DNA from: Nitrosarchaeum sp. | GTDB taxonomy: Archaea > Thermoproteota > Nitrososphaeria > Nitrososphaerales > Nitrosopumilaceae | Assembly (NCBI GenBank): GCA_016844465.1 | Contig: JAERMO010000002.1 | Location: 1-48,935 of the forward strand | DNA length: 48,935 nt | Direction: 5' to 3' | Shown: positions 2,086 to 22,085 of the stretch, in pieces | Layout: the number at the start of each line of letters is the position of its first letter | Position numbering within the stretch: position 1 is the stretch's first letter | The notes under the pieces: generated by a model | The model's database searches: none | The model's input: only the letters and a program-made list of their open reading frames with translations | Told to the model about the DNA's origin: nothing | Made by a program: the position numbers and the translations under genes

Positions 2086-4425
2086 TTATTTTCTTTTTGA
2101 TATAAAATAATCATCATCAGATTCTATCGGATGTCTTTTCGTTCTGATAAAATATATCAGTCTTAACAAATCCAGATAAATTCTATAAGCAAATTTGTTC
2201 TCTCTTATTCTTGGGGCAATTTTATCCCAGAAATACCTAGTTTGGATTGAGGACAATCTGGAATCTCTAATCACAAAAATGGTTGTCTTTGTTTTTTCAA
2301 TAATTTCCATTGTTTTTGGACTAAATGCTTGATCAGATTGATTTCCAGCACCCATAATAATTATCTCAGGTATGGTGCTGTTAAAATGTGCTAACAAATC
2401 ACGCATCACATTTTCTTTTCTTGAAGGTATTCTGTGTATTGGAATTTTTTTTATATCCAGATCAAACATTCGTTCGTTAAGTTTTGCCAAAATATCTCGC
2501 TCTTCCTCGGGGGAACCTGTTATTCCACGGACTATTCGGATTTTGCTATTTAGTGATTTGGCAAGTATGTCTGAGATTTCCAATCCCATATTTGAGTGGC
2601 GTCCCTTGTCATATGAAACAACAATGTTGGATAATTCGGTATGAAAATTTTCTCCCATGTGAACTCCCATAATATCACATGTGGTAAGTGAGAGTAGTTT
2701 TCTATTATTTTTTAGACTATGAAAATCCATTATTAGCAGATTAACTCCTTGTTGTTCTACGGTTGCAAGAATAGCTTCAGTGGTATCATGTGTTAATCGT
2801 ATAAGGTATCTACATGGGACTTGCCATGATTCTTTTTTTAGATCATCAAATGATCTCATTGCAGGCTCTGTGAATTTCTGAGCTTCTGTAAGTGGTAATT
2901 GTATAGGAATTGTCACTATATTCAAAAATGACACTTCGCCATCCTTTTGTTGCGCAATAGCTGAAGCTATTTTAGCTAATTTTGCAGAGTGTTGATCAAA
3001 AACAACCATTATTCGGTAATCCTTTCTTTCTTTTGGACCCTCACTGGCAAACAGAGGGGCATGGTGCTCGATTTCTTTTTTAACCGAATATATTTTGTAA
3101 ATTGAAAAACCTATCAATATCCAAATAATTGCAATCAACCAGCTTAACGGATTATAAACTAAAAGATATATCGCAAGACCGATTGTGGTAAATATTCCAA
3201 TTAAAGGCAAAACAGGGAAAAAAGGCATCTTGAATCCATAGTCTAGTTTATGTCCGTATAATCGGCGAATTGTTATAGCCGCAATATTTACCTGAGTGAA
3301 AAGAAAAAGAAACATAACGCTTGCAGCCAGTGCAATTTGCTCAAGAGGCAACAGTAATGCAACTATTATCATTATTACTCCCGATGCTATTGTTGCATAG
3401 TGTGGCGTATGGTATTTTTTATGAAGTGTACTAAACTCTACAGGTAAAGTGTAATGTCTTCCCATTGCAAACGCAACACGACTGGATGAAAATGTAGTTG
3501 CATTTAATGCCGATAATGTAGATACGATACCTCCAACAATTACTATAAACGCACCAAAGGGAAGAAGATACTTTGCACCTTCAATTATTCCAAGCTCTTT
3601 ATGTCCTCCAATAAATTTCCAAGGATCTTCTCCAGTTTGAGATGAGTTCAAACCTCCAATGAACGCAAATGTAAACACAATATACAGTACAACAACTACT
3701 GCTAATGAAATAAAAATTGCACGTGGAATATTTCTTTTTGGATTTTTAACCTCTTCACCTGTCTGAACAATTATCTCGTATCCTTCAAAAGCAATAAACG
3801 TCAAACCCATTGCAATAATAATTCCTATACTTCCATTAGGAAAAAAATCCTGAAAATTTTCAGGCCAGTCATGATTGGTAAAGCTAACTGCATACAAACC
3901 TGCAATTATGAGAACGCCTATAATTGCCAACTGCGAAAATGTAATTACACTTCCAATTTTGCCCGTATCTGATGCTCCTCTGACATTAATGTAAGTAAAA
4001 AGCACAATGGCTAGTACTGCAATTATTTTGTCTAGTCCTTCAAAAACTAGTATGTTCAATACTGTAAGCAAATGACTGAGAAACGAACCAAAGGCCACTG
4101 CGTAGAGACTTCCTGCTATTATGTGTGCAAACCACGCCATCCATCCACTGATAAACGCATTTGGTCTTGGCAATCCTTGTCTGATCCAACCGTAACCACC
4201 TCCAGCTTCGGGAAGCGCAGAACCAAGTTCTGCATAAGTCATTGCTGTAAATAACGTGATTACTCCATTGACTAAAAACACAATCATAAGTGCTGGCCCT
4301 GCCTCATTCATTGCTGGACCAACTAAGACAAAGATCGCACCACCTATCATGGCTGCAATCCCAACCATGACAATATCTACGAGCGATAAACTGCGTACAA
4401 GACCAGATGATGGGATTTCAGACAT
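2086..4425 (-). CDS. APC-family amino acid permease with C-terminal USP-like domains
   Basis: GIAAMIGGAIF, YAELGSALPEAGGGY, FEGYE, EEVKNPKRNIPRA motifs; soluble C-terminal region. Confidence 0.9.
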   Translation of the reverse strand: MSEIPSSGLVRSLSLVDIVMVGIAAMIGGAIFVLVGPAMNEAGPALMIVFLVNGVITLFTAMTYAELGSALPEAGGGYGWIRQGLPRPNAFISGWMAWFAHIIAGSLYAVAFGSFLSHLLTVLNILVFEGLDKIIAVLAIVLFTYINVRGASDTGKIGSVITFSQLAIIGVLIIAGLYAVSFTNHDWPENFQDFFPNGSIGIIIAMGLTFIAFEGYEIIVQTGEEVKNPKRNIPRAIFISLAVVVVLYIVFTFAFIGGLNSSQTGEDPWKFIGGHKELGIIEGAKYLLPFGAFIVIVGGIVSTLSALNATTFSSSRVAFAMGRHYTLPVEFSTLHKKYHTPHYATIASGVIMIIVALLLPLEQIALAASVMFLFLFTQVNIAAITIRRLYGHKLDYGFKMPFFPVLPLIGIFTTIGLAIYLLVYNPLSWLIAIIWILIGFSIYKIYSVKKEIEHHAPLFASEGPKERKDYRIMVVFDQHSAKLAKIASAIAQQKDGEVSFLNIVTIPIQLPLTEAQKFTEPAMRSFDDLKKESWQVPCRYLIRLTHDTTEAILATVEQQGVNLLIMDFHSLKNNRKLLSLTTCDIMGVHMGENFHTELSNIVVSYDKGRHSNMGLEISDILAKSLNSKIRIVRGITGSPEEERDILAKLNERMFDLDIKKIPIHRIPSRKENVMRDLLAHFNSTIPEIIIMGAGNQSDQAFSPKTMEIIEKTKTTIFVIRDSRLSSIQTRYFWDKIAPRIRENKFAYRIYLDLLRLIYFIRTKRHPIESDDDYFISKRK

Positions 4426-4554
4426 TGAATCTGTCGATTTGTCAAGAATGTAAGATATAGGGCTTTTGATCTAACGGCGAGTAAAATATTTAATTCTGCG
4501 GATAAAGACATTAGTAAAATATATATCAAATGATCAACAAACTGGAAAATTTAA

Positions 4555-5325
4555 TTAGACTTTTTGTTCTAAAACCCAATCATATCCTTCGCTTTCTAGC
4601 TTATCTGCAAGGGATGCATCACCCGTCTTTAATATTTGGCCTCTGGCAAAGACGTGAACAAAATCTAATTTGTCCAAGAATTTTAAAATTCTTGCATAGT
4701 GAGTAATTATAATTACGGTTGCATCTTTTCCTGTTACCTGGCTTATTGCTTTAGCCACTGCTTGTACTGCATCAATATCTAAACCTGAATCAGGTTCATC
4801 TAAAATTGAAATCTTAGGTTTTAATACTGCCATCTGTAATACCTCTGCGCGCTTCTTTTCTCCTCCTGAAAATCCTTCATTAAGATATCTTGAAAGAAAT
4901 TCTTCTTTCAATCCAACCTTGTTCAGGTTTTCTTTAAGATATTTTTGAAATTCTCTTACAGTGATGAATACTTCTCTGTCATCTCCTTGCAGTGCCTTAC
5001 TTAGTGAATTGTAAGCCGTTCTTAGAAAATGTGAGAATCCAACACCAGATACTTCTGTAGGGTACTGAAACCCTAAAAACAACCCTTTTTTTGCACGTTG
5101 ATCTGCAGATAATTCTAAAATGCTTTGCCCATCAAGCAAAATATCTCCTTTAGTCACTTCATATTTTGGATGAGCAAGTAGTGTATATGCTAAAGTACTT
5201 TTTCCAGAACCATTAGGTCCCATTATCGCATGTATTTCTCCAGGACCTGTTTTCAAATTAACTCCTTTGAGTATTTCTTTACCTTCCCGTGAAACATGAA
5301 GATCTATAATCTCTAGCACTGCCAT
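4555..5325 (-). CDS. sufC: Fe-S cluster assembly ATPase SufC
   Basis: Walker A GPNGSGKST, FQYP, LNEGFSGGEKKR, LDEPDSGLDIDA; likely start ATG 5325. Confidence 0.95.
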   Translation of the reverse strand: MAVLEIIDLHVSREGKEILKGVNLKTGPGEIHAIMGPNGSGKSTLAYTLLAHPKYEVTKGDILLDGQSILELSADQRAKKGLFLGFQYPTEVSGVGFSHFLRTAYNSLSKALQGDDREVFITVREFQKYLKENLNKVGLKEEFLSRYLNEGFSGGEKKRAEVLQMAVLKPKISILDEPDSGLDIDAVQAVAKAISQVTGKDATVIIITHYARILKFLDKLDFVHVFARGQILKTGDASLADKLESEGYDWVLEQKV

Positions 5326-11039: not shown

Positions 11040-11351
11040 ATGGGTAAACGCCAAGTTAAAAATGAAAGTGACTTAAAAGAAATGCGTTTGCCAGAAGAGG
11101 GTGAACTTTTTGGTAGAGTTCTTAAAATGCTTGGTGGGGAAAATGTGATGATAAAATGTACTGATGGTCTTACTAGGAGAGGTAGAATCAGATGAAAATT
11201 AAAGCGTAGAGTCTTGATTCGTGATAATGATATAGTCATAATTGCTCCATGGGATTTTAAAGAGAATGAACGAGGTGATATTGTTTGGAGGTTTACTTTA
11301 CCTCAAGTTGATTGGCTTAAAAACAATAACCACATCGCAAAAGACTTCTAA
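11040..11351 (+). pseudogene. eif1a: Translation initiation factor eIF-1A with in-frame TGA at codon 52
   Basis: MGKRQVKNESDLKEMRLPEEGELFGRVLKMLGGENVMIKCTDGLTRRGRIR*KLKRRVLIRDNDIVIIAPWDFKENERGDIVWRFTLPQVDWLK; TGA at 11193-11195. Confidence 0.92.
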
Positions 11352-11460
11352 ATCCCCCTGATTGGTCTGGTAAATGTATTTAGCTTATGAATAATTATGC
11401 TGTATTTGATATATTTTGATAACTTATCTTAATATACGGAATAATTATTCCACATATCAA

Positions 11461-11652
11461 ATGGAACAAGGCACAGTAAAGTGGTTCAATCGCACTAAGG
11501 GCTTTGGTTTTATCGAAAGAGAATCCGGTGACGATCTATTCGTTCACAAATCAGATGTTGATGGATTCATCAATGAAGGCGATAAAGTCGAGTTTGAAGT
11601 AGGCGAGGGTCAAAAAGGACCAGCTGCTCAGAAAGTCAAAAAAACAGCATAG
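11461..11652 (+). CDS. csp: Cold-shock domain protein
   Basis: [15 protein letters not shown] (RNP1), LFVH (RNP2), GQKGPAA. Confidence 0.95.
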
Positions 11653-11654
11653 GC

Positions 11655-11735
11655 AATAGATATTTTTATTAATTTAAGAGTTCATCATTGTTTTCTTAAA
11701 TTAGTCTATTTTTTATTATTTTTACATTTTTAATT
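11655..11735 (+). terminator. Hairpin plus T-rich tract downstream of csp
   Basis: TAATTTAAGA (11670-11679)/TCTTAAATTA (11694-11703) with outer AATAGA/TCTATT, followed by T runs. Confidence 0.5.
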
Positions 11736-11747
11736 TATAAAAAACTG

Positions 11748-11874
11748 TGGTCCCAAGCGAAGGAGTTGAACCTTCGACAGCCCGGTTTCTGTATGCCTGA
11801 TATGCTGTTATTCGGTCAGCCATCATAAGCCGACAACTACAGCCGGAAGCTCTACCAGGCTGAGCTAGCTTGGG
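11748..11874 (-). tRNA. tRNA-Tyr(GTA) with 50-nt intron (11787-11836) at 37/38 and encoded CCA
   Basis: CCCAAGC/GCTTGGG acceptor with C1-G72 and A73, D arm GCTCAGCCTGGTAGAGC, anticodon GTA, T loop TTCAACT; exon CUGUA pairs with intron UACAG (BHB). Confidence 0.95.
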
Positions 11875-11986
11875 ACAAAAAAAAGAAGTATCCTTGTATT
11901 AAAAAACTATCGAAGATGACCTAATTTGATTAATAATTAAACCTCTACTCAATATGCATAAATACTCTATTTCAAGGAATTTGATT

Positions 11987-12598
11987 ATGGCTACACAGAC
12001 GTTATCTTACTCTGGTTATGTTTGTGCTCCTTATTTACATAATCATACATCTATTGAATTAAAAGATGCTTGGATAATCTCAAAAAATATTGAATCATTG
12101 TATTTTGTGACTGGAACATTTTCCAATGAAAGCGGTGCATATTTTTCTAATTCAACTAATCATTATATTTTAGGAAAATTCAAAGATAGTCAATACATCA
12201 TAAATGATCTAAACAAATACAACCAAGAAAAAACATCCTTTGTTTTTAGTATTAAAGACGAATTTTTTCAAAAGGAAGTTATGGGAGAAACAAATTTTGT
12301 TACGGTTTATTATTTAGAATATGGGCAATCTGAGGAGGATTTGCAAGAAATTGCAAATCTCTTATTAAAACGGGCTAAAATTGAGACTGCCGGCGTAGGT
12401 TACATGAATATGGTTTGTACGTCCCCTTCAAAATTTACTTTTCCATACTCTGAAAATATTGTGATAATTGAGGTTGCAAGCGAAAAGAGCCATCAGAGTG
12501 TAAAAAAATATTGTGAAGAAACCAAACGTGATGTGAATAGAAAAGGATTGACAATGACCAATTTGCTTAGTCTTTCAATTCTGGACAAACTAAAATAG
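11987..12598 (+). CDS. Hypothetical protein
   Basis: 203-aa ORF from ATG 11987 with TATA-like ATAAATA about 25 nt upstream. Confidence 0.75.
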   Translation: MATQTLSYSGYVCAPYLHNHTSIELKDAWIISKNIESLYFVTGTFSNESGAYFSNSTNHYILGKFKDSQYIINDLNKYNQEKTSFVFSIKDEFFQKEVMGETNFVTVYYLEYGQSEEDLQEIANLLLKRAKIETAGVGYMNMVCTSPSKFTFPYSENIVIIEVASEKSHQSVKKYCEETKRDVNRKGLTMTNLLSLSILDKLK

Positions 12599-12801
12599 AA
12601 AAGTTAAATTCTTCCGTCGGGTTTTGGGTAATAAATTTACTCATAACTGATATTTCATGCCTAAATTATCAAGTATTTACTCTCATTTTTGAAAAAAGGT
12701 TGTTTTACTTGTTTGGCATTCTACGCGTTTAGTGGTTTTAGATACAAAAGAGTTTAGAATCTAATTTTCAATTCCACAATACGTTTATTTTTAATCAAAA
12801 A

Positions 12802-13218
12802 ATGGCTTTCTTATTGGTTAATGAGAAAATTCAAAAACTTGCAAGTCAAATTTTTAAGGTAGATCCTTTAATTCAACATTTGGGCCTGATTGATCTAGAA
12901 GGTCAGATATTAACAGATCAATCATCAGCGTCTTCTGTTCCAATTGAACCAGATGACGATAGAATAATGTTTTATTATCAAGTTGGTTTGCGTAGAGGGA
13001 GACGTGAGCACTTTAATGATGTTTACGGTGCAACAGAATACATCCATATCATTAGAAAAAAGATACAACAAATCGTGCTCTACCTGCCAATGATTACGAT
13101 ATATCTAACAGTGGATAAGCGAATGACTCCAGATGAAGTTGGACAGCTTGCCGAAAAAATAAAAAATCTAGATTCAAAATTATTAAGTGATGCAATTCAA
13201 AGTACTTTTTATTCATAA
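12802..13218 (+). CDS. Roadblock/profilin-like fold protein (thaumarchaeal expanded family)
   Basis: IQHLGLIDLEGQI...YIHIIRKKIQQIVLYL pattern shared with 26354-26710. Confidence 0.65.
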   Translation: MAFLLVNEKIQKLASQIFKVDPLIQHLGLIDLEGQILTDQSSASSVPIEPDDDRIMFYYQVGLRRGRREHFNDVYGATEYIHIIRKKIQQIVLYLPMITIYLTVDKRMTPDEVGQLAEKIKNLDSKLLSDAIQSTFYS

Positions 13219-13400
13219 ACTTGTGAACCATATTGTTGATTCAGGTTAAGGATTAAATCCAAAAAATAGAGTCATTTACCTAATTGTAATTTATAAAGTA
13301 GAATTATCACAAAATCAAAAAGAGTTTAGAATTTAATTACATTTGAGATAAAGTGTTAATTTGATGAAAAAAATAATAAGTTCAAGTACTAAGATATAGT

Positions 13401-13790
13401 CTGTCTAAACCAAAAATTATCCTAGATGTTCCATTGAAGGATTTGAAAGATATTTTGTTAGATAAGGGTTGGGATGTCAGTACAGTTACCGAAAAACTTG
13501 GATCTACAAAGGAAGCAAGATCTGATGAAAATATTCTCAGATATTCTCAGGAAACAAATTCATTGGTGGTTACGGTAGACAAACCATTTGTTTCAAGGCT
13601 AAAATCAGCAGGTGTAAAAGTAGTTGCTTTAGCGTTAGAAGACAAAGCTAGGATAATTAATGAAAAGCTGGCAAGGTGTATCCTAGTAGATATGGATATC
13701 AAAAACTCAACGGATGATGAAGTTCTTGATGATTTTAGCAAAATTAAGAGTGGTGAAGCTTCAAGAATGGCTCAAAAGAATTCTGGCTAA
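13401..13790 (+). CDS. PIN-like (DUF5615/Mut7-C type) domain protein; possible CTG start
   Basis: In-frame upstream extension SKPKIILDVPL, then GWDVSTV, SDENILRYS, LVVTVDKPF. Confidence 0.65.
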   Translation: MSKPKIILDVPLKDLKDILLDKGWDVSTVTEKLGSTKEARSDENILRYSQETNSLVVTVDKPFVSRLKSAGVKVVALALEDKARIINEKLARCILVDMDIKNSTDDEVLDDFSKIKSGEASRMAQKNSG

Positions 13791-14245
13791 TATTCACGTG
13801 AAATATAAATGAAGACAGATAGAGTTTGTAATTTAACCGTGTGTTTTAACTGAATGACAATTATAGCATAACCGTTCAATAACAACATATCATTTACACA
13901 TACCACAATTACAAACTAAAAAGAGTTTAGGAAATCAAAAAGAGATTAGAATTTAATCATCATTAATTATTGTATCCAGTCCCAAGTTGTCAGTAATGGT
14001 GCATCCGATTGGCAATGAGAGATTCACATGAACTTGAAAAAAGAAGGATGATCTTCGCGTGTTCAAAAATCCCATACTCGAAAATATGTCCTGAATTGTA
14101 ATGGATGTAATGACTATCGCGTATTCTCAGGAGTTAGATAGTTGAAAAATGAGATGGTCATAGGAATTTCTTAAAGATGCCGGTTTTACATCTTATTTTT
14201 CATAATAAATCCACCAAGGAAATCAAAAGGAGGTTAGAATCTAAT

Positions 14246-14422
14246 TTACAGATCTTTTTTTTGTTCATCGTCCGTGCTGTCAATTTCAATGTTTAATTTT
14301 GTTTGTTGTTTCTTTTTTTGTGATTCTTCTTGTTGTTTTCCATATGTACCAGAAAGTAATTCATCACTTAATCTATCTAGATGCATTGCAATATACCACG
14401 AATTTGGATTAACCAGAGTAGT
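14246..14422 (-). pseudogene. Short open frame or gene 3' remnant ending at a repeat copy
   Basis: TTLVNPNSWYIAMHLDRLSDELLSGTYGKQQEESQKKKQQTKLNIEIDSTDDEQKKDL*; in frame with the upstream 14423-14944 ORF. Confidence 0.4.
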
Positions 14423-14944
14423 TTAGCTCCCAACCCATAATTTCTCAGTGCCTCTTTGCGTGGTAACCCAATGACCGGTTACTGTATCTTTTATTTTATG
14501 CATTGAAAATATGATGCTAGGTATTAACGGTCTACCTGGAGTTTGAATGGCTTCAATTCCCAACCCTTCCTTTGTCTTTTCAACTGCCATCATCACATTG
14601 ATAACATCGCCAGCATTGAAGTTCATCATGGTTTGATTAACTACGACATTTTTGCTCTGATTGTTACTAAGAACACTACGTACGTTGGAATTTACAATGT
14701 CTTGATTATTTTTTCGTAGCCAAAAGTCAACGTATCTAGATTCGTTGCCAATTGTTCGCCCTATTTGAGGGGCAGCTATTACCACATAGGTACCTGAATC
14801 GTGAATTACAATGTCACCAGGACTCTGTGCAGAATGTTCTATTCCAGATATCGCATCATTTTGATTCATTGTCACTTTTACAGGTTCTGTTGTATCAGGC
14901 CTTTGGTCTTGGGTACTAATTATCTGTGCAAATTCTACTGGCAT
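14423..14944 (-). CDS. Hypothetical beta-sandwich protein, C1q/BclA-C-terminal-like
   Basis: IVIHDSGTYVV, VDFWLRKNNQDIVNS, FNAGDVINVMM pattern. Confidence 0.6.
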   Translation of the reverse strand: MPVEFAQIISTQDQRPDTTEPVKVTMNQNDAISGIEHSAQSPGDIVIHDSGTYVVIAAPQIGRTIGNESRYVDFWLRKNNQDIVNSNVRSVLSNNQSKNVVVNQTMMNFNAGDVINVMMAVEKTKEGLGIEAIQTPGRPLIPSIIFSMHKIKDTVTGHWVTTQRGTEKLWVGS

Positions 14945-15166
14945 GATCCTAAATCATGCCTATTTGTATTAAAAGTAATAGCATTCATTTGTAATTATTT
15001 GTAGTTGCAAGAAAATATTCATTATTTTTAAATAGGATTATAATCTACTTATGTGAAATTTAAAAACAATGTACAAAATTATAAACTGGAATATCAAAGG
15101 TTTGTTTTTCAGGGATAAATTTTTTTTAAAAAATAAAACAAAAGTTTATTGGAGTTATGATATTCA

Positions 15167-15707
15167 TTGAATAATAAATTAGTTAAAAATAACAAATCAA
15201 TAAATCTTTCGACAAGGATAGATGGAAAAGCATACACAGAATTATTGGAGATTGCAGGCTTCAAGGGAATTAGTTTGAACTCTTTAATCAATAGCATCAT
15301 TAAGCATTATTTGATCTTTGAACAATTCTCGGAAGATTTGGGACTTGTATCATTAACAAAACCTACTCTTAAAAAAATATTTAATACAATGGATGATGAA
15401 ACTATTGGAAAAATTGCCAAAAATGTCGGGGGGGACTGTTCCACAGGAATTAATCTATCTTTCAAGGGAGACTTTTAACTTTAGTAATCTAATGAAGATG
15501 ATTGAAGTTAGTGATTCTCGTTTTGGAAAAATAAAATGCAAGCAAATTGATTCGACATTTAATATAAATATACTACATGGAGTCTCAGAAAATTTTTCAA
15601 AATTTCTAGGGGGGACACACAATGCTCTATGCAATAAACTTTCATTAAAACTTAATATTGAACATATGGATAATAACATGATTTGTATGAAATTTGAAAA
15701 ACCATAG
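15167..15707 (+). pseudogene. Ribbon-helix-helix-type protein frameshifted at a G7 tract (15428-15434)
   Basis: N-term SINLSTRIDGKAYTELLEIAGFKGISLNSLINSII; deleting one G joins ORFs 15167-15478 and 15393-15707 (NVGGTVPQEL). Confidence 0.8.
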
Positions 15708-15786
15708 CAATAAAATTTTCAGAGTTACTGAGGAATATATTTTAGTATAAATCGCAGTATTTGAGTGTCATTAAATTAGCACTAGA

Positions 15787-15856
15787 ATTTATCATAATTC
15801 TGTTTTAAATTTGTTAAATTATTAGATGTGTCATATTCAATGAAAAATATTTTTAT
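15787..15856 (+). repeat. 70-bp perfect direct repeat, copy 1
   Basis: ATTTATCATAATTCTG...GAAAAATATTTTTAT identical to 16606-16675. Confidence 0.95.
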
Positions 15857-15926
15857 GATTTACTACATGATCAATTCATTATGCTACATTCAGAATCAAA
15901 AATTATTTCAATAAATGTAAAATCCT

Positions 15927-16285
15927 TTATGGGGCTGAGTTTACAAAATCCACAATAGACATTATTTTACCCATATCTACCAAATGACCATAGCTCTTCC
16001 CCTTACTAGCTTTCAGTGGTGTATTATCCACACTTTTTCATAAGCTGCTATTACATACATACCTCGTCCAACCTTATCTGTGATAGTAGATCGTTCATGC
16101 CACGCATTTACTGCTCTCTTTAGCGTTTTCTTGGTATCATCTAAAAGAACAATATTTTTTACTCCTTTTCTTTGACTGTTCCATAATATTTCACCATCTT
16201 TATCACAAACTGCTGCAAATCTAATAGAATCATCAAAATCCATTAACATGTTAAGAAGTTTTTCGTATTTTTCCGTAAATGACAT
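15927..16285 (-). pseudogene. Roadblock-like (DUF6659-like) protein, frameshifted
   Basis: SIRFAAVCDKDGEI...YVIAAYEK, then plausible continuation in other frames (SVDNTPLKASKGKSYGHLVDMGKI; MSIVDFVNSAP*). Confidence 0.65.
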
Positions 16286-16605
16286 TTGCAACAGAAATAT
16301 TAAAGAATTGCTATAATTATCAAATTACAAAATGCCATACTGAGATTTTGACATCTGGTAATATGCAAACCCTAAAATTTTTATATTATTCATACAAATC
16401 AAACAAACTGAAATTTCCACCTGAAAAATTCCAGATTTTTGTTACGTTACAGGAACTTTTAGCTGTTGATAAAAAACATTACAAGATTTCAGATTCTTTA
16501 CAATATCTGTTTTACAGTTCCATGTGTTGGTCTAACTTTAGATCATTGTATCTATTTCTTATTGTAACATCAGTCACACTTGCAGAGTTGCAAACCTGTG
16601 TGAGG

Positions 16606-16675
16606 ATTTATCATAATTCTGTTTTAAATTTGTTAAATTATTAGATGTGTCATATTCAATGAAAAATATTTTTAT
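16606..16675 (+). repeat. 70-bp perfect direct repeat, copy 2
   Basis: Identical to 15787-15856. Confidence 0.95.
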
Positions 16676-16878
16676 CTTTTAGAATACTTGGATTCAGGTT
16701 CAAATAATTCTTTATCTTGATTAATGATTAGTTTTTTATGATGACAAAGACATGCACATTTAAGCTCATTACAGAAATCATGCTGATTCATCACACATTT
16801 GAAGCCAAAATCACGTATTGGAGTCTGTATCCATGTAGAATCTTGAACAGTTAATTGAATGGAATCTTTATTTTCCAT
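16672..16878 (-). CDS. Small Cys/His-rich hypothetical protein
   Basis: CVMNQHDFCNELKCACLCHH metal-binding-like motif; TATA-like box about 25 nt upstream. Confidence 0.65.
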   Translation of the reverse strand: MENKDSIQLTVQDSTWIQTPIRDFGFKCVMNQHDFCNELKCACLCHHKKLIINQDKELFEPESKYSKR

Positions 16879-16989
16879 GATTTTCTAAATTTTGTTTAAA
16901 CTTAAGATCATGTGTTTTTTTTAAACAACACCCATATTCTAGGCTCAAGTTTTGCAGCATTGTTTGGGAAATCAAAAGGAGATTAGAAT
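16874..16989 (-). promoter_or_regulatory. ~115-bp upstream module homologous to 21155-21269
   Basis: Shared ATG context, TATA-like box, GTGTT...AACAC inverted repeat and terminal repeat copy. Confidence 0.65.
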
Positions 16990-18527
16990 TTCTTTTTAAT
17001 TTGATAAATTACAATTCCCGGAGCAATAAAATACATTCCAACATTGAGTAAGATCAGGAAAATTCCAAATCCTAATACATTACCTTCTGAATCCATATCA
17101 ACATAATTCAGAAGAGAAAGTGATGAAATCATTGGTATGATTGCAATCTTGACAGCCTCTTTGAATATTGGATTTTCACGTTCATAATCAGCTACTGCTG
17201 GACTGAAAGAATAGTAAAAATCATTAAATGTATTCATGAAGTTGCTTCCGTATTTTGTTTTGAGTAGTTTGTTGTCTCGAAATTCTCGTAACTGTTGAAC
17301 TTGCGGAGCCAGTTCAGAACCATAAGTTGCAGTGGCGATTAAACACCCACCTTCTTTCATATCTGAATCAGTTATATTGAGTGATTCTTTTGGAATTATT
17401 CTGTATATTGCCTTATCATTTAATGATACAACGTATAGAAAACCATCAGGACCTCTTTCGATATCTGTAATGCACCCAAATCCAGTACCGATTATGATCT
17501 CGTCCATGACTTCATTTTTGTTAATTACATCATCTTGAAGAAATGAATTGATAAATTGAAATCCATTTCGTTCTTCATTTAATTCAAATTTGTAAAGATT
17601 ACCATTATTACAATCACCTACAAAAAGAGAATTATCATAATCCCGAGTTTCCTTAAATTTTGCAAAATTTAATGCTGTTGGAGCAACTACTTTCTCCCAA
17701 CTAAATTCTGGATCATCATAAACATAATCCTCATAGCCTGGAAGATCCCCTAGTTGAGATTCTGTCGCAGGGCCCATTATCGCTATCCAACCACTGTTAA
17801 ATTTTTCTTGAACCATATTGATTTCATCAAAATCATCATCTCCATTTTCAGTATCCCATAAATTTCCAGTCACAGGGTCCACTGCAAGTCCAAAACTGTT
17901 TCGAATTCCCATGGCATAGTATGGGCCTTCTTGTTCTACTTGTAAAATTACACCGTTATCTCTCATGTTTAAATCAGAACTATTCAACCACTCAAGAGCC
18001 TTGTTTTGAAGAAGGCCATACCGTCCAGTATCTCCTATTACTACATACACTTTGTCATCCAATCCTGCCACCATAGCTCCACCATTATGATAAGTGTTTG
18101 AAGGAAGTTTCTTTAACAAAATAGGATTTATCAATTTGTTCCCATCCCAATCATACTTGAAAATTCGGTTTCCTAATGATTCACCACCGTCTATTTTTGC
18201 CTCTGTAAAATAAAGATAAACTATTGAATTGACACTAGTAATGCCCAACATGCCGGCCTCTCCACCTGAATTAACATTTACATCAAGAACAGGCTTTTCC
18301 CACAAAACGCCATCTCGAATTAAACGAACTATCCCATCATTTTTTTGTACAATTAAGATATCATCTCCAACAAAAGTCATTGTAGTTACCACACAACACA
18401 AATTTGCAACATATTTTTTGACAATTAGCTTTTGATCATATAAAATTGGATCACTAAAGGCATTGGGAATTATTGCAAGTGTGAAAATCAAGACCAGAGT
18501 AAAAACTAGAATTTTCTCCACTGGCAT
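16983..18527 (-). CDS. Secreted PQQ-dependent glucose/sorbosone dehydrogenase-family protein with CFI-box-CTERM anchor
   Basis: Signal peptide; HNGG, GDTG, YAMGIRNSFGLAVDP, ENG, DEIN, GPDGFLYV; GGCLIATATYGSELAPQVQQLRE plus C-terminal TM. Confidence 0.92.
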   Translation of the reverse strand: MPVEKILVFTLVLIFTLAIIPNAFSDPILYDQKLIVKKYVANLCCVVTTMTFVGDDILIVQKNDGIVRLIRDGVLWEKPVLDVNVNSGGEAGMLGITSVNSIVYLYFTEAKIDGGESLGNRIFKYDWDGNKLINPILLKKLPSNTYHNGGAMVAGLDDKVYVVIGDTGRYGLLQNKALEWLNSSDLNMRDNGVILQVEQEGPYYAMGIRNSFGLAVDPVTGNLWDTENGDDDFDEINMVQEKFNSGWIAIMGPATESQLGDLPGYEDYVYDDPEFSWEKVVAPTALNFAKFKETRDYDNSLFVGDCNNGNLYKFELNEERNGFQFINSFLQDDVINKNEVMDEIIIGTGFGCITDIERGPDGFLYVVSLNDKAIYRIIPKESLNITDSDMKEGGCLIATATYGSELAPQVQQLREFRDNKLLKTKYGSNFMNTFNDFYYSFSPAVADYERENPIFKEAVKIAIIPMISSLSLLNYVDMDSEGNVLGFGIFLILLNVGMYFIAPGIVIYQIKKKF

Positions 18528-18595
18528 TGTAAATTTTCTATAGACTTAAGGATTTACAAAGAGATTAGAATCAAAGAATTATGAAAAATATTCCT

Positions 18596-18775
18596 CTATT
18601 TCTCATACGTGGTTTTGCCAACTGACTCATAGCGCACATTTCTGGGTAGTTTCACAATTTCTTTTGCTCTCTCTTGTAATGCCTCAAGATACAATTCAGA
18701 GTGCTCTAAAACCTGCTCATATTGCTTAATTAACTGATATTCTTTTTTTAATTTGATTAATTTACGGATGACCAA
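18596..18775 (-). CDS. Hypothetical 59-aa protein (TTG start)
   Basis: MVIRKLIKLKKEYQLIKQYEQVLEHSELYLEALQERAKEIVKLPRNVRYESVGKTTYEK. Confidence 0.45.
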   Translation of the reverse strand: MVIRKLIKLKKEYQLIKQYEQVLEHSELYLEALQERAKEIVKLPRNVRYESVGKTTYEK

Positions 18776-18844
18776 GTACAGTAAAAAGAAACGATTGAAT
18801 TAGTAATACAAAAGTTTTAATCAATACTGAAATTCAATTGTGAT

Positions 18845-19009
18845 ATGGCTGATCTTAATACTTACGCAAAAATAAATGAAGAGATTAAATTCACAGAAGA
18901 AGAGACAGTAGAACTTTTGAAGTTAAGTGAAAAGGAAATACTGGTTCTGATCCTGTCTGAATTAAAAAAGATAACCGAGAATACACAGGAAGATAACAAA
19001 AAGAAATAG
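18845..19009 (+). CDS. Hypothetical 54-aa protein
   Basis: MADLNTYAKINEEIKFTEEETVELLKLSEKEILVLILSELKKITENTQEDNKKK; TTTTAA about 25 nt upstream. Confidence 0.6.
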   Translation: MADLNTYAKINEEIKFTEEETVELLKLSEKEILVLILSELKKITENTQEDNKKK

Positions 19010-19011
19010 AT

Positions 19012-19195
19012 TTAGTTTATTTTCCACCGGATTTAACCGACCCTCACCACCCGTGTGAATCTTTAGAACCTTTGTTGTAAATTTAATATCTAATATGACG
19101 CCATTTTCTATTGTAATTACAGCACCATTTTGAACATCAACGTTTCCTGGGGTAGTAATTGTGCTAGTAATTGTGCTAGTAATTGTGTAGTTTGA
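19012..19195 (-). pseudogene. C-terminal remnant of a surface/secreted beta-rich protein
   Basis: TITTPGNVDVQNGAVITIENGVILDIKFTTKVLKIHTGG...(fs)VKSGGK(fs)IN*; no start codon. Confidence 0.6.
19153..19187 (+). repeat. 12-bp tandem repeat (TAGTAATTGTGC), about 3 copies
   Basis: Directly visible; encodes (S)TIT repeats on the minus strand. Confidence 0.9.
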
Positions 19196-19197
19196 GG

Positions 19198-19506
19198 TTA
19201 TCGTCCTTTTCGACTAAATCCAGGTATGATTTTAAAGTTAGATGCAGAAGATGTTTGAAACTTTTTACCTGCTTTTTCCTTTTTTGATTCAGTGTTTGAA
19301 TCCTCTTCAATTTTGAAAACCTTTTCTACATGTGGTTTGACTTTTGTGTCATCCGTGTAAATGATGTTTGTTGGAGAAGTTTTTCTCTCTGCTTTTTTCT
19401 TTTTTGATTTTTCAGTATCTACTGGGTTTTTTTGTGTCCATTTGATGTTGCCTGTGCCTGACAAAGAAGATTGTTCAAGCATATAATCACCTAATGAATT
19501 TCCCAT
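19198..19506 (-). CDS. Hypothetical Lys-rich, likely disordered protein
   Basis: 102-aa ORF with ATG start. Confidence 0.6.
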   Translation of the reverse strand: MGNSLGDYMLEQSSLSGTGNIKWTQKNPVDTEKSKKKKAERKTSPTNIIYTDDTKVKPHVEKVFKIEEDSNTESKKEKAGKKFQTSSASNFKIIPGFSRKGR

Positions 19507-19613
19507 ACTCTTCCATTATGACTATGAACATAAGCCTATGGATCGGAATTAGAATCTAAGAATTTTTCTTAATTATTTCTTGGATAGAATTTGGGATTAG
19601 AAAATAAAAAAGA

Positions 19614-20043
19614 CTAGTTCTCTCTATTTTTTCGGATATAGTACACCCGACTCCTGCAAATCCTAGAATAGTTGGAACCATCCAAATTGCGCTAGAAGTT
19701 ATTCCTGATACAAATAATACTGTAGTGTTTAGTGGTACGAATTCTCCTGCTACTGTAGTTGGACAAAGATCTAACTTTGCTGTAGAAAGACAGTCAGCTG
19801 TAAAAATTTGTAACTCCTGAACACATATGCTATCAAATTGGACATTTTTACACCATGAGTCTACTAGATATACTCTCTAATGCCAGTGTTGCACAATCAT
19901 CTGGGCAGACGGGGTCAAATATTTCCCTATTTTGGATCAGAGGTGCAACCCCTATCGGCAGTAAATGCTGTAGAACTCATTCCTGCAAATAATACCAGTG
20001 AAAGGATTCCTGCTAAAATCTTTTGATTGTTGTTAAATTTCAA
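19614..20043 (-). pseudogene. Decayed secreted protein with C-terminal membrane anchor
   Basis: Signal peptide MKFNNNQKILAGILSLVLFAGMSSTAF, early stop, tail VAGEFVPLNTTVLFVSGITSSAIWMVPTILGFAGVG(fs)VYYIRKNREN*. Confidence 0.75.
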
Positions 20044-20152
20044 TAATTTTTCTTATCTTATGATAATATGATAATTATGAGGAATCTAGTCAAGAATGTC
20101 TTTACTAGTTTTAACACACGTGCATTTATCACAATTAGAAAAAACTATGAAT

Positions 20153-20200
20153 TTAATTTATTTTCTCCCCGAATTTAATCAAGAAGCCACTCCCAGATTC
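20153..20200 (-). pseudogene. Second C-terminal remnant similar to 19012-19195
   Basis: ESGSGFLIKFGEKIN* resembles ...GG...VKSGGKIN*. Confidence 0.45.
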
Positions 20201-20354
20201 AAAGTTAGAGTAAAACATTCCAATATATGTTCAGAAAATTATTTCTAGTCAACTAGTGATATGTCAAATTCATAAGTATACAGATTGTATTCAGAATCAG
20301 GCCTATTTTAAAGACAACCTACATTCTAATTGGATTTGACTGCTCGGAAATACT

Positions 20355-20741
20355 CTAAGAACCCATCATACCTACCATCTTTGGCAATTCTCGGTATGCT
20401 TTATTTACAAAAATATCATTATCGGCATCAATCATCACAAATTCCATTGGATTATCAGAGGGTGGGGAGAGTATGATCTTTTGGCCTGATTTTAGAGTTT
20501 TAATATCAAGTGTGTCACCTGCACCAAAATTCACATGGATGTTTGTCAATGGCTGAGAGTCAGTATTTTGAATTGTGATTCTTCCAGTTACAAAGAGGTT
20601 TTGTTTGTCAATAATAGGATCCACAAAAATATCATATTCTTGGGTAGGTACTGAAAATTTCAATATATCCAACCCAAAAACTATGGCCATAATCCCAATG
20701 ATTCCTATACCGATAGCAATAAGAATGGAATATTGTTTCAC
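20355..20741 (-). CDS. Membrane-anchored hypothetical protein
   Basis: N-terminal TM, Ig-like ITIQNTDSQPLTNI...TLKSGQK. Confidence 0.75.
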   Translation of the reverse strand: MKQYSILIAIGIGIIGIMAIVFGLDILKFSVPTQEYDIFVDPIIDKQNLFVTGRITIQNTDSQPLTNIHVNFGAGDTLDIKTLKSGQKIILSPPSDNPMEFVMIDADNDIFVNKAYRELPKMVGMMGS

Positions 20742-20895
20742 TGCAACAATATATTTTTTCTACTTATTAAGTTTCTAGGCCATTTAGAGAACATGTTTTA
20801 AATCACAATAGAAAGCTAGCTTTTCGTCATTATACATTTCATATGCAAAATATTCTAGTCACAAAAATAACTTAGAAAATCAAAGAGATTAGAAT

Positions 20896-21159
20896 CTATT
20901 TCAAATAATCGTGAGTTAATTTTGATTTTGTTTTACGCTTCATCTTTGTGGTGGTATATTGGGATATGAGAAGTGGTTCATTTAATTTGTAGAGTTGTTG
21001 TTCGACACAAAAACGCTTTTTCATTAATTCTTGTATTTGACTTTTCAAAGTATTCGAGTCCCAATCCGCATTTACTAGATCTGTTAGTACAGATACTATC
21101 TCGCGTTCAACATGAGACTTTTCTGCATGATATTTGGACTCTTGTTTGGATAATTCCAT
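20896..21159 (-). CDS. Hypothetical helical protein
   Basis: 87-aa ORF; stop codon directly abuts a repeat copy. Confidence 0.65.
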   Translation of the reverse strand: MELSKQESKYHAEKSHVEREIVSVLTDLVNADWDSNTLKSQIQELMKKRFCVEQQLYKLNEPLLISQYTTTKMKRKTKSKLTHDYLK

Positions 21160-21332
21160 GCCTTTCTAATTTTTGTAAGAATTTAAAGTCATGTGTGTTT
21201 TTCTGGAAAACACAAGGTTAGGCTTGAATCTCACAGAGTAATGTTAGGAAAATCAAAAAAAGATTAGAGTTACAATAAAAAGATAAATCATTCATTGAGG
21301 TTAAATACAAAATTTGTATTATATGAAATAGT

Positions 21333-21449: not shown

Positions 21450-21674
21450 TGAAAATAATTTAGATTAACAATGGTTAGGAAATTAAAGATTTTAAAAAAA
21501 TTTGCAAGACCTTGAGATATTCTCATCCTCAAGGTGCGCAAAGATAGGTAAAAAAAGTAAGTCCAAAAAAACAACTTATTTCCTAAAGACTTGAAATTAA
21601 AGCTAGTTTTTTATTTATTTTCTGCACGCCCTACGTGAGTAGAAGTTAAATATTCGACTAAAATCTGCTTCATC

Positions 21675-22085
21675 ATGAGCAAACCTGCTGATCTTGGTTC
21701 ATTAAAAATTGGCTCATACATTCTATTGCCTGTCTCAGATCAACCTGATGGTGAGGCTTGCAGGATTACAGAATATGATACATCTAAACCAGGAAAACAC
21801 GGTGCAGCAAAGGCTAGGATTGTAGGTGTAGGGGTATTTGATGGAAAATCCAGACCACATGTAGGACCTGTTAGCATGCAAGTGCATATCCCACTAATAG
21901 ACAAGAGAACTGGCCAGATTATATCGATTATTGGTGATACTATCCAAGTTATGGATTCAGAAACTTTTGAGACCATTGATGTCACTTTAGTTGATTCTGA
22001 AATAAACGGAGTACTTGAAAATGGTCAAAATGTTGAATATTGGAAAGTAATGGACAGAACTAAAATAATGCGTATTAAAAGCTAA
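21675..22085 (+). CDS. eif5a: Translation factor aIF-5A
   Basis: Hypusine motif SKPGKHGAAK. Confidence 0.97.
   Translation: MSKPADLGSLKIGSYILLPVSDQPDGEACRITEYDTSKPGKHGAAKARIVGVGVFDGKSRPHVGPVSMQVHIPLIDKRTGQIISIIGDTIQVMDSETFETIDVTLVDSEINGVLENGQNVEYWKVMDRTKIMRIKS

What the first reader, a model, noticed from the sequence alone, without database searches (positions are those of the whole stretch)
12718..21271. Candidate gene-cassette array: same-orientation ~25-bp sites partition the accessory region
Seen: TTAGRAAATCAAAA(A/G)GAGWTTAGAAT recurs at 12738, 13312, 13913/13927, 14218, 16964, 18557, 19548 (partial), 19597, 20872 and 21244, with degenerate copies near 15783, 18997 and 20135. All are on one strand, and I saw no full copy among the flanking core genes. 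On the minus strand it reads TAR-ATTCTAA-WCTC-TTTTTGATTT-YCTAA. In six copies TTAGAAT is followed directly by a minus-strand stop triplet (12761, 13333, 13953, 14241, 19556, 20896), and at 16983 and 19614 the motif itself supplies the gene's stop. Units between sites carry one or a few unrelated orphans, surface proteins or remnants. Established: integron attC sites also begin at or overlap cassette stop codons, but these sites lack the canonical RYYYAAC...GTTRRRY long palindrome. Inference: a non-canonical cassette acquisition/shuffling system served by a recombinase encoded elsewhere; a lineage-specific terminator or 3'-end protein-binding site is the main alternative.
Basis: partly seen in the sequence, partly recalled or inferred. 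Interest (0 to 1): 0.88.

Follow-up and report, generated by a model that had tools for sequence, protein, structure and literature searches.

The report
Casposase gene tails bounding gene cassettes
The repeats are copies of the last codons of a Cas1-type transposase gene, and they mark the exact points where small gene modules are gained, lost and reordered in ammonia-oxidising archaea; the transposase likely does the shuffling itself, which is untested and would make this an integron-like system run by a CRISPR-type integrase.

Summary
The motif is real, polar and non-random. Its core AAAAGAGWTTAGAAT(CTAA) is the coding end of family-1 casposase (Cas1) genes (…CxGKQKEFRI*). Seven of 40 casposase ends carry it, and 34% of 277 sites keep further casposase sequence on their left (0.6% in shuffles). 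The sites bound mobile modules. Near-identical strains lack 12746–13317 or 13938–16974 exactly from site to site. The same modules sit beside different neighbours in other species, and homology ends cluster at the core (68 of 199, against 6% of ORF ends). Some casposons carry site–gene–site arrays directly behind the casposase gene, and one such module recurs behind five sites with no casposase gene. This is not an integron: there is no attC hairpin, and tyrosine recombinases do not track the motif. It is not a general terminator either. The window's 9-kb island lies in the eIF5A promoter, not at the tRNA. The catalyst is unproven: casposase acting on a site in its own gene (about 0.5), or host recombination between relic tails (about 0.3). 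Seven literature searches found no description.

The parts
12601..12609 (+). Left copy of a 9-bp direct repeat bounding the island (eIF5A promoter region)
   Evidence: Relatives have one copy and no island (16 of 16 loci shown); contig joints 12600->21643 and 12602->21645
12746..12764 (+). Site 1: casposase-tail core, 27 bits
   Evidence: homology with G009 ends here; loose contig ends before 12746
12761..13317 (+). Module 1: 138-aa orphan ORF 12802-13218
   Evidence: Precisely absent (572 bp, 15 shared letters) in contigs of two runs; no Pfam match
13313..13336 (+). Site 2, core 13318-13332, 29 bits
   Evidence: three different left neighbours precede the same right flank in G000, G007 and G001
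13333..13817 (+). Module 2: DUF5615/PIN-like ORF 13434-13790
   Evidence: Pfam; the same module is bounded by sites at both ends in other contexts in L031 and L032
13818..13833 (+). Degenerate site (8 bits), right end of module 2
   Evidence: intact in L031, where homology stops
13917..13956 (+). Tandem partial site (13919) plus site with core 13938-13952, 27 bits
   Evidence: joints 13325->13946 and 13941->16979
14217..14244 (+). Site with core 14226-14240, 24 bits
   Evidence: homology with C122 ends and with C115 starts here
14241..16974 (.). Multi-gene stretch: 173-aa ORF, split 103/104-aa ORFs, 92-aa and 68-aa ORFs, remnants
   Evidence: absent together with 13938-14240 in a strain about 99% identical
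16956..16989 (+). Site with the longest casposase tail in the window (reads LQHCLGNQKEIRI in the casposase frame); core 16975-16989
16983..18527 (-). Module: 514-aa glucose/sorbosone-dehydrogenase-family surface protein; its stop codon lies inside the core
   Evidence: Pfam PF07995; homology with G009 runs 16975-18556 exactly; five different left neighbours
18557..18571 (+). Site, 19 bits, directly upstream of the promoter of the 514-aa gene
   Evidence: back-joint 18556->12746 in two runs
18996..19015 (+). Degenerate site
   Evidence: C59 has an intact site before the same right flank; homology with L040 and L041 ends at 19002
19198..19506 (-). Module: 102-aa ORF
   Evidence: Found in other contexts; directly before the dehydrogenase module in G015, a different order
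19549..19559 (+). Right half-site TTAGAATCTAA
   Evidence: homology with L030, L038 and L039 ends here
19597..19616 (+). Left half-site
   Evidence: homology with C106 starts here
20135..20156 (+). Degenerate site; right flank similar to that of 18996
   Evidence: family D7
20355..20741 (-). Module: 128-aa membrane-anchored orphan
   Evidence: also found elsewhere in relatives
20872..20898 (+). Site, core 20881-20895, 18 bits; stop of the 87-aa ORF abuts it
   Evidence: homology with C144 starts here
20896..21159 (-). Module: 87-aa orphan ORF
21245..21270 (+). Last site, core 21256-21270, 12 bits
   Evidence: homology with C27 starts here
21643..21651 (+). Right copy of the 9-bp direct repeat, in the eIF5A promoter (gene 21675-22085)
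   Evidence: Pfam

Best explanation
The repeats are copies of the 3' coding tail of family-1 casposase (Cas1) genes and mark the junctions of small gene modules that are gained, lost and reordered at the repeat; the casposase, supplied in trans by casposons that come and go, likely catalyses these moves by treating its own gene tail as a landing site. Shown: the identity of the tail, its polarity, precise site-to-site presence and absence, the same modules beside different neighbours, and arrays directly behind casposase genes inside casposons. Inferred: cargo is first picked up behind the casposase gene, a module then leaves between two tails carrying one tail, and it re-enters at another tail with the exchange inside the 15-bp core. 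Also inferred: deletion later trims tails to 7-30 bp and pulls stop codons and promoters up against them, which would give the graded tail lengths and the stop-codon adjacency. Arrays would persist after the enzyme is lost.
For: Identity. Two genes next to sites are Cas1 (PF01867, E 6.7e-49). 7 of 40 distinct casposase 3' ends carry the motif, in three genera, scattered on the tree (6 changes for 6 rows). They lie in casposons with a polymerase gene, TIRs and a 13-bp TSD. The family's closest solved relative is casposase 6OPM, and E166, H236 and E251 are invariant (their catalytic role is recalled). 34% of 277 sites have casposase-like sequence left of the core against 0.6% of shuffles; about 19 of these sites are casposase ends themselves. 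13 of 121 metagenome loci picked only by the motif join casposase sequence. Mobility. Contigs of near-identical strains skip 12746-13317, 13938-16974 and 13326-13945 at sites, and two runs join 18556 to 12746. Of 27 site pairs sharing a right flank, 2 also share the left, against 117 of 192 for motif-less gene ends. 68 of 199 homology ends lie within 25 nt of a core, against 6% of 594 ORF ends. There is a filled/empty pair, L074 versus L093. Link to casposons. Casposase-site-module-site arrays occur in L182, L249, L206 and L210. The module behind the casposase in L182 recurs behind 5 other sites. 10 of 12 genomes with 5 or more exact sites have a Cas1 hit, against 142 of 289 others (hand tally; p 0.035; kin are not independent). 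Chemistry. The 13-mer ending in GAGT keeps A1, A11 and T13, the three TSD bases found critical for the characterised family-1 enzyme, which also integrates non-TIR DNA (PMC8464041). TAGAATC also occurs in several TIRs.
Against: No activity on the motif was tested. The motif lacks the TTT leader and AAA flank that the characterised enzyme needs (PMC8464041) and lacks the C-run of the TIRs, and modules have no inverted ends. Tails range from 7 to about 130 bp, and long displaced tails differ from the resident gene's tail, which fits decay and homologous recombination. Clean site-to-site losses need only slippage between direct repeats. 33 of 40 casposases lack the DNA motif, yet many keep a K-x-x-x-F-x-I end, so the tail may be conserved as protein. 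The one intact casposase found in this 77%-complete genome lacks the motif. No casposase was found in G280 (99% complete, 7 exact sites), G296, G294 or G043. Sites are decaying: a 96.9%-identical contig differs inside two cores. No casposase remnant beyond the tails was found in the window. The exchange point could not be fixed.
Confidence: 0.5

Rival explanations
1. The tails are passive relics of casposons. Decayed or stacked elements leave tail-cargo-tail runs, and host slippage, single-strand annealing or microhomology recombination between tails excises, re-inserts and reorders the modules. The casposase only seeded the repeats.
For: Graded tails of 7-130 bp, and displaced tails from other casposase lineages. 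Tandem casposons are common. Casposase stubs are mostly co-oriented with the nearest site (15 of 21, with some double counting). Arrays occur in genomes with no casposase found. The flanks are non-canonical for the enzyme (PMC8464041).
Against: Many sites share only about 15 bp, which is short for RadA-type recombination (recalled). Both ends of a module switch neighbours at the core across species. Sites are scattered over many loci far from aEF-2, and no TIR was found in the window. The right edge of the motif is sharp.
Confidence: 0.32
2. The tail is kept as a transcription terminator (a U-tract after the stop of a convergent cargo gene), and breakpoints merely follow gene ends.
For: 76 of 111 right neighbours are convergent, and 20 have their stop at +8 or +15 of the core. 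The bottom strand has a T-run.
Against: 35 right neighbours start downstream instead, and 50 of 113 left neighbours end on the A-rich strand. Only 19 strong sites exist genome-wide and none in the window's 40 kb of core genes. Breakpoints prefer the core over other gene ends. Module 2 has a site at both ends. RNA was available only as contigs, so transcript ends were not tested.
Confidence: 0.08
3. A different recombinase (tyrosine or serine family, host- or element-encoded) uses the motif, and casposons carry the site in their gene tail to capture cargo.
For: A short asymmetric site with a palindromic TTAGAATCTAA end and strict polarity resembles att or dif sites (recalled). Arrays exist without a casposase. 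Tyrosine recombinases are common in the genus (20 of 31 genomes).
Against: No PF00589 match in G001, G009, G010, G012 or G043 (6, 8, 4, 3 and 3 exact sites), while G014, G002, G008 and G011 have 2-7 matches and no exact site. None of 99 ORFs near sites was a tyrosine or serine recombinase. Serine recombinases were not searched genome-wide.
Confidence: 0.1

Closest known systems
Family-1 casposons of Nitrosopumilaceae (NitAR1-C1; PMC4046053, PMC6563490, PMC6614799, PMC8464041)
   Same: The motif is the end of their casposase gene. The elements that carry it have a polymerase gene, TIRs and a 13-bp TSD, often at aEF-2. The motif shares TSD bases A1, A11 and T13 and the TAGAATC stretch of some TIRs.
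   Different: Window modules have no TIR, polymerase or casposase. The repeat is a gene tail in direct orientation, not the host TSD, and it occurs at many chromosomal loci. The passages read describe no such internal site.
Integrons and CALINs, including archaeal ones (bioRxiv 10.1101/2022.02.06.479319)
   Same: Co-oriented sites separate one- or few-gene modules; modules are excised, reordered and shared; arrays occur without the enzyme; the primary site lies next to the enzyme gene.
   Different: No attC hairpin and no IntI. The site is 15-30 bp of coding sequence. Most genes face against the site and carry their own promoters.
CRISPR arrays (Cas1 adaptation)
   Same: Cas1-family enzyme; direct repeats of TSD-like length separating foreign DNA.
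   Different: Spacers are 0.15-3 kb genes of unequal length, repeats are degenerate, and there is no Rfam match. No cas2 or effector gene was seen among the 99 ORFs near sites that were scanned, and modules move between loci.
SSV-family integrases that carry their recombination site inside their own gene (PMC7253208, search listing only)
   Same: The putative recombination site lies within the recombinase ORF.
   Different: Those are tyrosine recombinases (recalled) that split their own gene on integration. Here the enzyme is Cas1 and the site is the last seven codons, so the gene survives.
Phage boundary or linker sequences and T4-type promoter cassettes (recalled)
   Same: Short repeats at module borders guide shuffling, possibly by host recombination.
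   Different: Here the repeat derives from a transposase gene tail. The promoter block often found beside it is a general promoter (47 matches in G000, 2 next to a strong site).

Membership tests
Integron / CALIN | attC sites folding into a single-strand hairpin with R and L boxes | tested here: not met
   112 sites, mean folding z of -0.09 (top strand) and -0.02 (bottom strand); no general inverse core
Integron / CALIN | IntI tyrosine recombinase with attI | tested here: not met
   One PF00589 gene in G000, on another contig behind SMC; the family does not track the motif. An IntI-specific model was not run.
Integron / CALIN | Co-oriented sites bounding mobile gene cassettes | tested here: met
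   89 of 95 neighbouring pairs share orientation; breakpoints at cores
Family-1 casposon (the window island itself) | Casposase gene | tested here: not met
   Only tails; no nhmmer hit in C137
Family-1 casposon (the window island itself) | TIRs, 13-bp TSD and protein-primed PolB | tested here: not met
   No TIR pattern or PolB hit in C137; the island ends in a 9-bp repeat
Family-1 casposase (source of the motif) | Cas1 fold, active-site residues, no C-terminal HTH, in elements with PolB, TIR and TSD | tested here: met
   some motif-bearing elements (L091) have TIRs but no PolB
Family-1 casposase target site | 13-bp TSD with A1, A11, T13 plus TTT leader and AAA flank | tested here: inconclusive
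   The three bases are kept, the flanks are not (PMC8464041)
Family-1 casposase target site | Enzyme integrates DNA at the site | not testable with these tools
   Needs biochemistry
CRISPR array | Near-identical repeats with short spacers of uniform length | tested here: not met
   Median spacing about 600 bp and variable; no Rfam match
Xer/dif or pdif modules | 28-bp site with two 11-bp inverted arms; pdif sites alternate in orientation (recalled) | tested here: not met
   No conserved left arm; sites are co-oriented
Archaeal oligo-U terminator | Transcript 3' ends map to the site; common after core genes | tested here: inconclusive
   Not common after core genes; 3' ends could not be mapped from contigs

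The most novel reading that the evidence does not exclude
Nitrosopumilaceae have a Cas1-driven integron. A family-1 casposase carries its own attachment site in the last seven codons of its gene, captures gene-sized DNA there, and seeds enzyme-less cassette arrays across the chromosome that it can reshuffle in trans. It would be a living intermediate between casposon, integron and CRISPR array.
Probability: 0.4. Interest if true: 0.92.

Novelty: new variant of a known kind. Interest (0 to 1): 0.75.

Why it matters
Casposons are the proposed ancestors of CRISPR spacer acquisition, but natural repeat arrays built by a casposase are hard to point to. Here a casposase-derived repeat organises accessory genes across a family of abundant nitrifying archaea: 33 of 301 genomes have two or more exact copies, up to 20. 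A family-1 casposase is already expressed and assayed in vitro, so the central question can be tested directly with a 30-bp target. Even in the passive reading, the motif is a practical marker of module borders in the flexible genome of ammonia-oxidising archaea.

Tried and rejected
attC-like hairpin: rejected by folding against shuffles. Tyrosine recombinase as agent: no correlation with the motif. Xer/dif: no conserved left arm. tRNA-targeted island: the island sits in the eIF5A promoter, about 700 bp from tRNA-Tyr. Rfam RNA: none. Viral origin: one motif match in viral contigs, in a bacteriophage-like context and judged chance; no casposase relative there. Promoter cassette: the block YTTRAGGATTTAG is a general promoter. 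Motif as an exact TSD|TIR junction: an early reading, withdrawn because real junctions have AAAAA between GAGT and TAGAAT. Casposase-only insertion sequence: most such genes proved to lie in casposons. Locating the exchange point from core variants was inconclusive: position 15 follows the right flank (0.94 versus 0.48); position 7 was shared in 3 of 5 left-sharing and 1 of 8 right-sharing informative pairs. The AlphaFold model is low-confidence over residues 310-352, so it says nothing about the tail. RNA run X19 was contigs only, with partial cover. Assembly artefact: rejected by an independent 96.9%-identical contig with the same order over 11401-17907. The 157 left-sharing pairs are mostly the 18 casposase ends matched with each other and were not used as evidence.
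Full report
Setting. The window is contig C137 of a 77%-complete genome. A genome of the same genus matches a record titled Nitrosarchaeum. Core genes flank a 9,042-bp island between a 214-aa gene and eIF5A. All 16 relative loci displayed lack the island, and metagenome contigs join across it with 7-9 shared letters. tRNA-Tyr (c11748-11874) is not the insertion point.

Observation. The core AAAAGAGWTTAGAAT(CTAA) recurs on the + strand at 12746, 13318, 13938, 14226, 16975, 18557, 20881 and 21256, with partial copies between. A matrix trained on other genomes finds 19 sites above 20 bits in this genome, against 0 and 0 in controls. The exact 15-mer occurs in 85 of 301 family genomes. By my count 33 have two or more copies (up to 20), while the reversed control occurs once in 29 genomes and never twice. 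Outside the family, 10 of 98 genomes have one match and none has more; these were not examined. None of 113 strong sites lay inside an ORF of 80 aa or more. Neighbouring sites share orientation in 89 of 95 pairs.

The sites are breakpoints. Homology between window modules and other loci starts or stops at cores. The DUF5615 module runs 13316-13833 in G007, the dehydrogenase module runs 16975-18556 in G009, and G009's island shares only the part up to 12760. Among 133 sites, 17 pairs share a left flank and 33 a right flank, but only 2 share both. Motif-less gene ends in the same loci share both flanks in 117 of 192 pairs, against 2 of 27 for sites; that control includes core genes. In a test not anchored on sites, 68 of 199 homology ends within 1.5 kb of a site lie within 25 nt of a core, against 6% of 594 ORF ends; these events are not independent. 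Contigs from four runs laid on the island show site-to-site absences of 572 bp (two runs), 3,037 bp (a contig about 99% identical, depth 106) and 620 bp, plus a join of 18556 to 12746 in two runs. The 102-aa and dehydrogenase modules are adjacent, in another order, in G015. An independent contig at 96.9% identity has the window's order over 11401-17907, so the array is not an assembly artefact.

What the site is. A Pfam scan of 99 of the 300 ORFs near sites found a Cas1. It and a second gene end inside the motif, which reads G-K-Q-K-E-F-R-I-stop. Of 40 distinct 3' ends of this protein family, 7 carry the motif, in three genera and scattered over a 36-row tree. These are family-1 casposases. 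The nearest solved structure is 6OPM (model mean pLDDT 66.5). E166, H236 and E251 are invariant in 16 sequences. The genes lie in elements with a polymerase gene, TIRs beginning AAAAA-N6-7-CCCCC and 13-bp TSDs, often at aEF-2. One element (L193) has the same TSD as the published one and a tail one base short of the motif. Left of the core, 34% of 277 sites keep casposase-like sequence, against 0.6% of shuffles; about 19 of these sites are casposase ends themselves. Tail lengths are graded from about 130 bp down to TTAGAAT alone. The window site at 16975 still reads LQHCLGNQKEIRI. Of 121 metagenome loci chosen only by the motif, 13 join casposase sequence. Arrays follow the casposase gene directly in L182, L249, L206 and L210, and the module behind it in L182 recurs behind five other sites. 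This genome has a casposon on C19 whose casposase lacks the motif.

What it is not. The sites form no hairpin. PF00589 recombinases were not found in five motif-bearing genomes and are present in four with no exact site. There is no Rfam match. A general terminator does not fit the rarity of the site or the mixed gene orientations, although 76 of 111 right neighbours are convergent and 20 stop at +8 or +15.

Mechanism. Shown: tail identity, polarity and module mobility at the tail. Inferred: who moves the modules. For the casposase: the site lies in its own gene, arrays grow behind that gene, the shared core is only about 15 bp, and the 13-mer ending GAGT keeps the three TSD bases found critical in vitro, for an enzyme that also integrates non-TIR DNA (PMC8464041). 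Motif-rich genomes more often have a Cas1 hit (10 of 12 versus 142 of 289; hand tally, p 0.035; the hits include other Cas1 families and kin are not independent). Against it: the required TTT and AAA flanks and inverted ends are missing, long tails suggest homologous recombination, clean losses need only slippage, the tail may be conserved as protein, and four motif-bearing genomes have no detectable casposase. I put casposase catalysis at about 0.5, host recombination among relic tails at 0.32, another recombinase at 0.1 and terminator-only at 0.08. That the repeats are casposase tails and act as module junctions I put at about 0.9.

Literature. PMC8464041: parts 1-4 of 6 read. Passages only: PMC6563490, PMC4046053, PMC10359463, PMC6614799, bioRxiv 10.1101/2022.02.06.479319 and PMC12097351. 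PMC7253208: search listing only. PMC6563490 states that integron-like elements had not been found in these archaea and that counterparts might await discovery. Seven searches returned no paper describing casposase gene tails as cassette junctions. The library lacks most subscription papers, and I did not see figures or supplements, whose TIR and element tables could bear on this. Integron, dif, pdif and phage-linker features are recalled. Earlier AI notes on other genomes describe casposase-built arrays with TSD and TIR tips, and casposase tails read as relics; I treat them as untested leads.

Verdict. This is a new variant of casposon biology that works like an integron but is not one. Interest 0.75.

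Noticed in passing
window 22058-22085 and L002, L004, L008, L010, L011, L019: In relatives a variable 1.6-21 kb island lies after eIF5A, ending in a degenerate copy of the last 25 or so bases of eIF5A. This genome lacks that island, and no integrase hit was found in it with one query.
   Followed up: partly
window 11040-11351: The eIF-1A gene has an in-frame TGA where G314 has Gly: a nonsense change or an assembly error in an essential gene.
   Followed up: partly
window 11748-11874 (-): Intron-containing tRNA-Tyr, missed by the default scan.
   Followed up: yes
window 15784-15862 and 16603-16681: 79-bp duplication at 96% identity, unrelated to the motif; one run has a contig skipping the 819 bp between the copies.
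   Followed up: partly
G000 C19:209-7943 and C19:7957-8749: A family-1 casposon (casposase 473-1552, polymerase hit 3243-4889) at an aEF-2-type TSD, followed by a second TIR and a 31-codon casposase stub.
   Followed up: partly
L114, L119, L145, L146, L149 and others: Casposase start codons often overlap or abut the stop of varied upstream cargo genes, and 5' stubs of 20-130 codons are scattered in many genomes, so the 5' end of the gene also looks like a cargo junction.
   Followed up: partly
L091:8446-11747: A 3.3-kb casposon with TIRs and an intact motif-bearing casposase but no polymerase gene, inserted at a target other than aEF-2.
   Followed up: no
L195 (G294) 6813, 10083, 11257 and L194:15330: A lineage-specific tail variant (CGTATTG… before the core), suggesting more than one source casposase.
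   Followed up: no
window 12601-12609 and 21643-21651: The island's boundary repeat lies in the eIF5A promoter and may extend to about 13 bp with A1, A11 and T13, as in casposase TSDs, but no TIR follows it; the agent is unknown.
   Followed up: partly
L001:1141-2223 (G000 C64): The only tyrosine recombinase found in this genome, 360 aa, directly behind the SMC gene.
   Followed up: no
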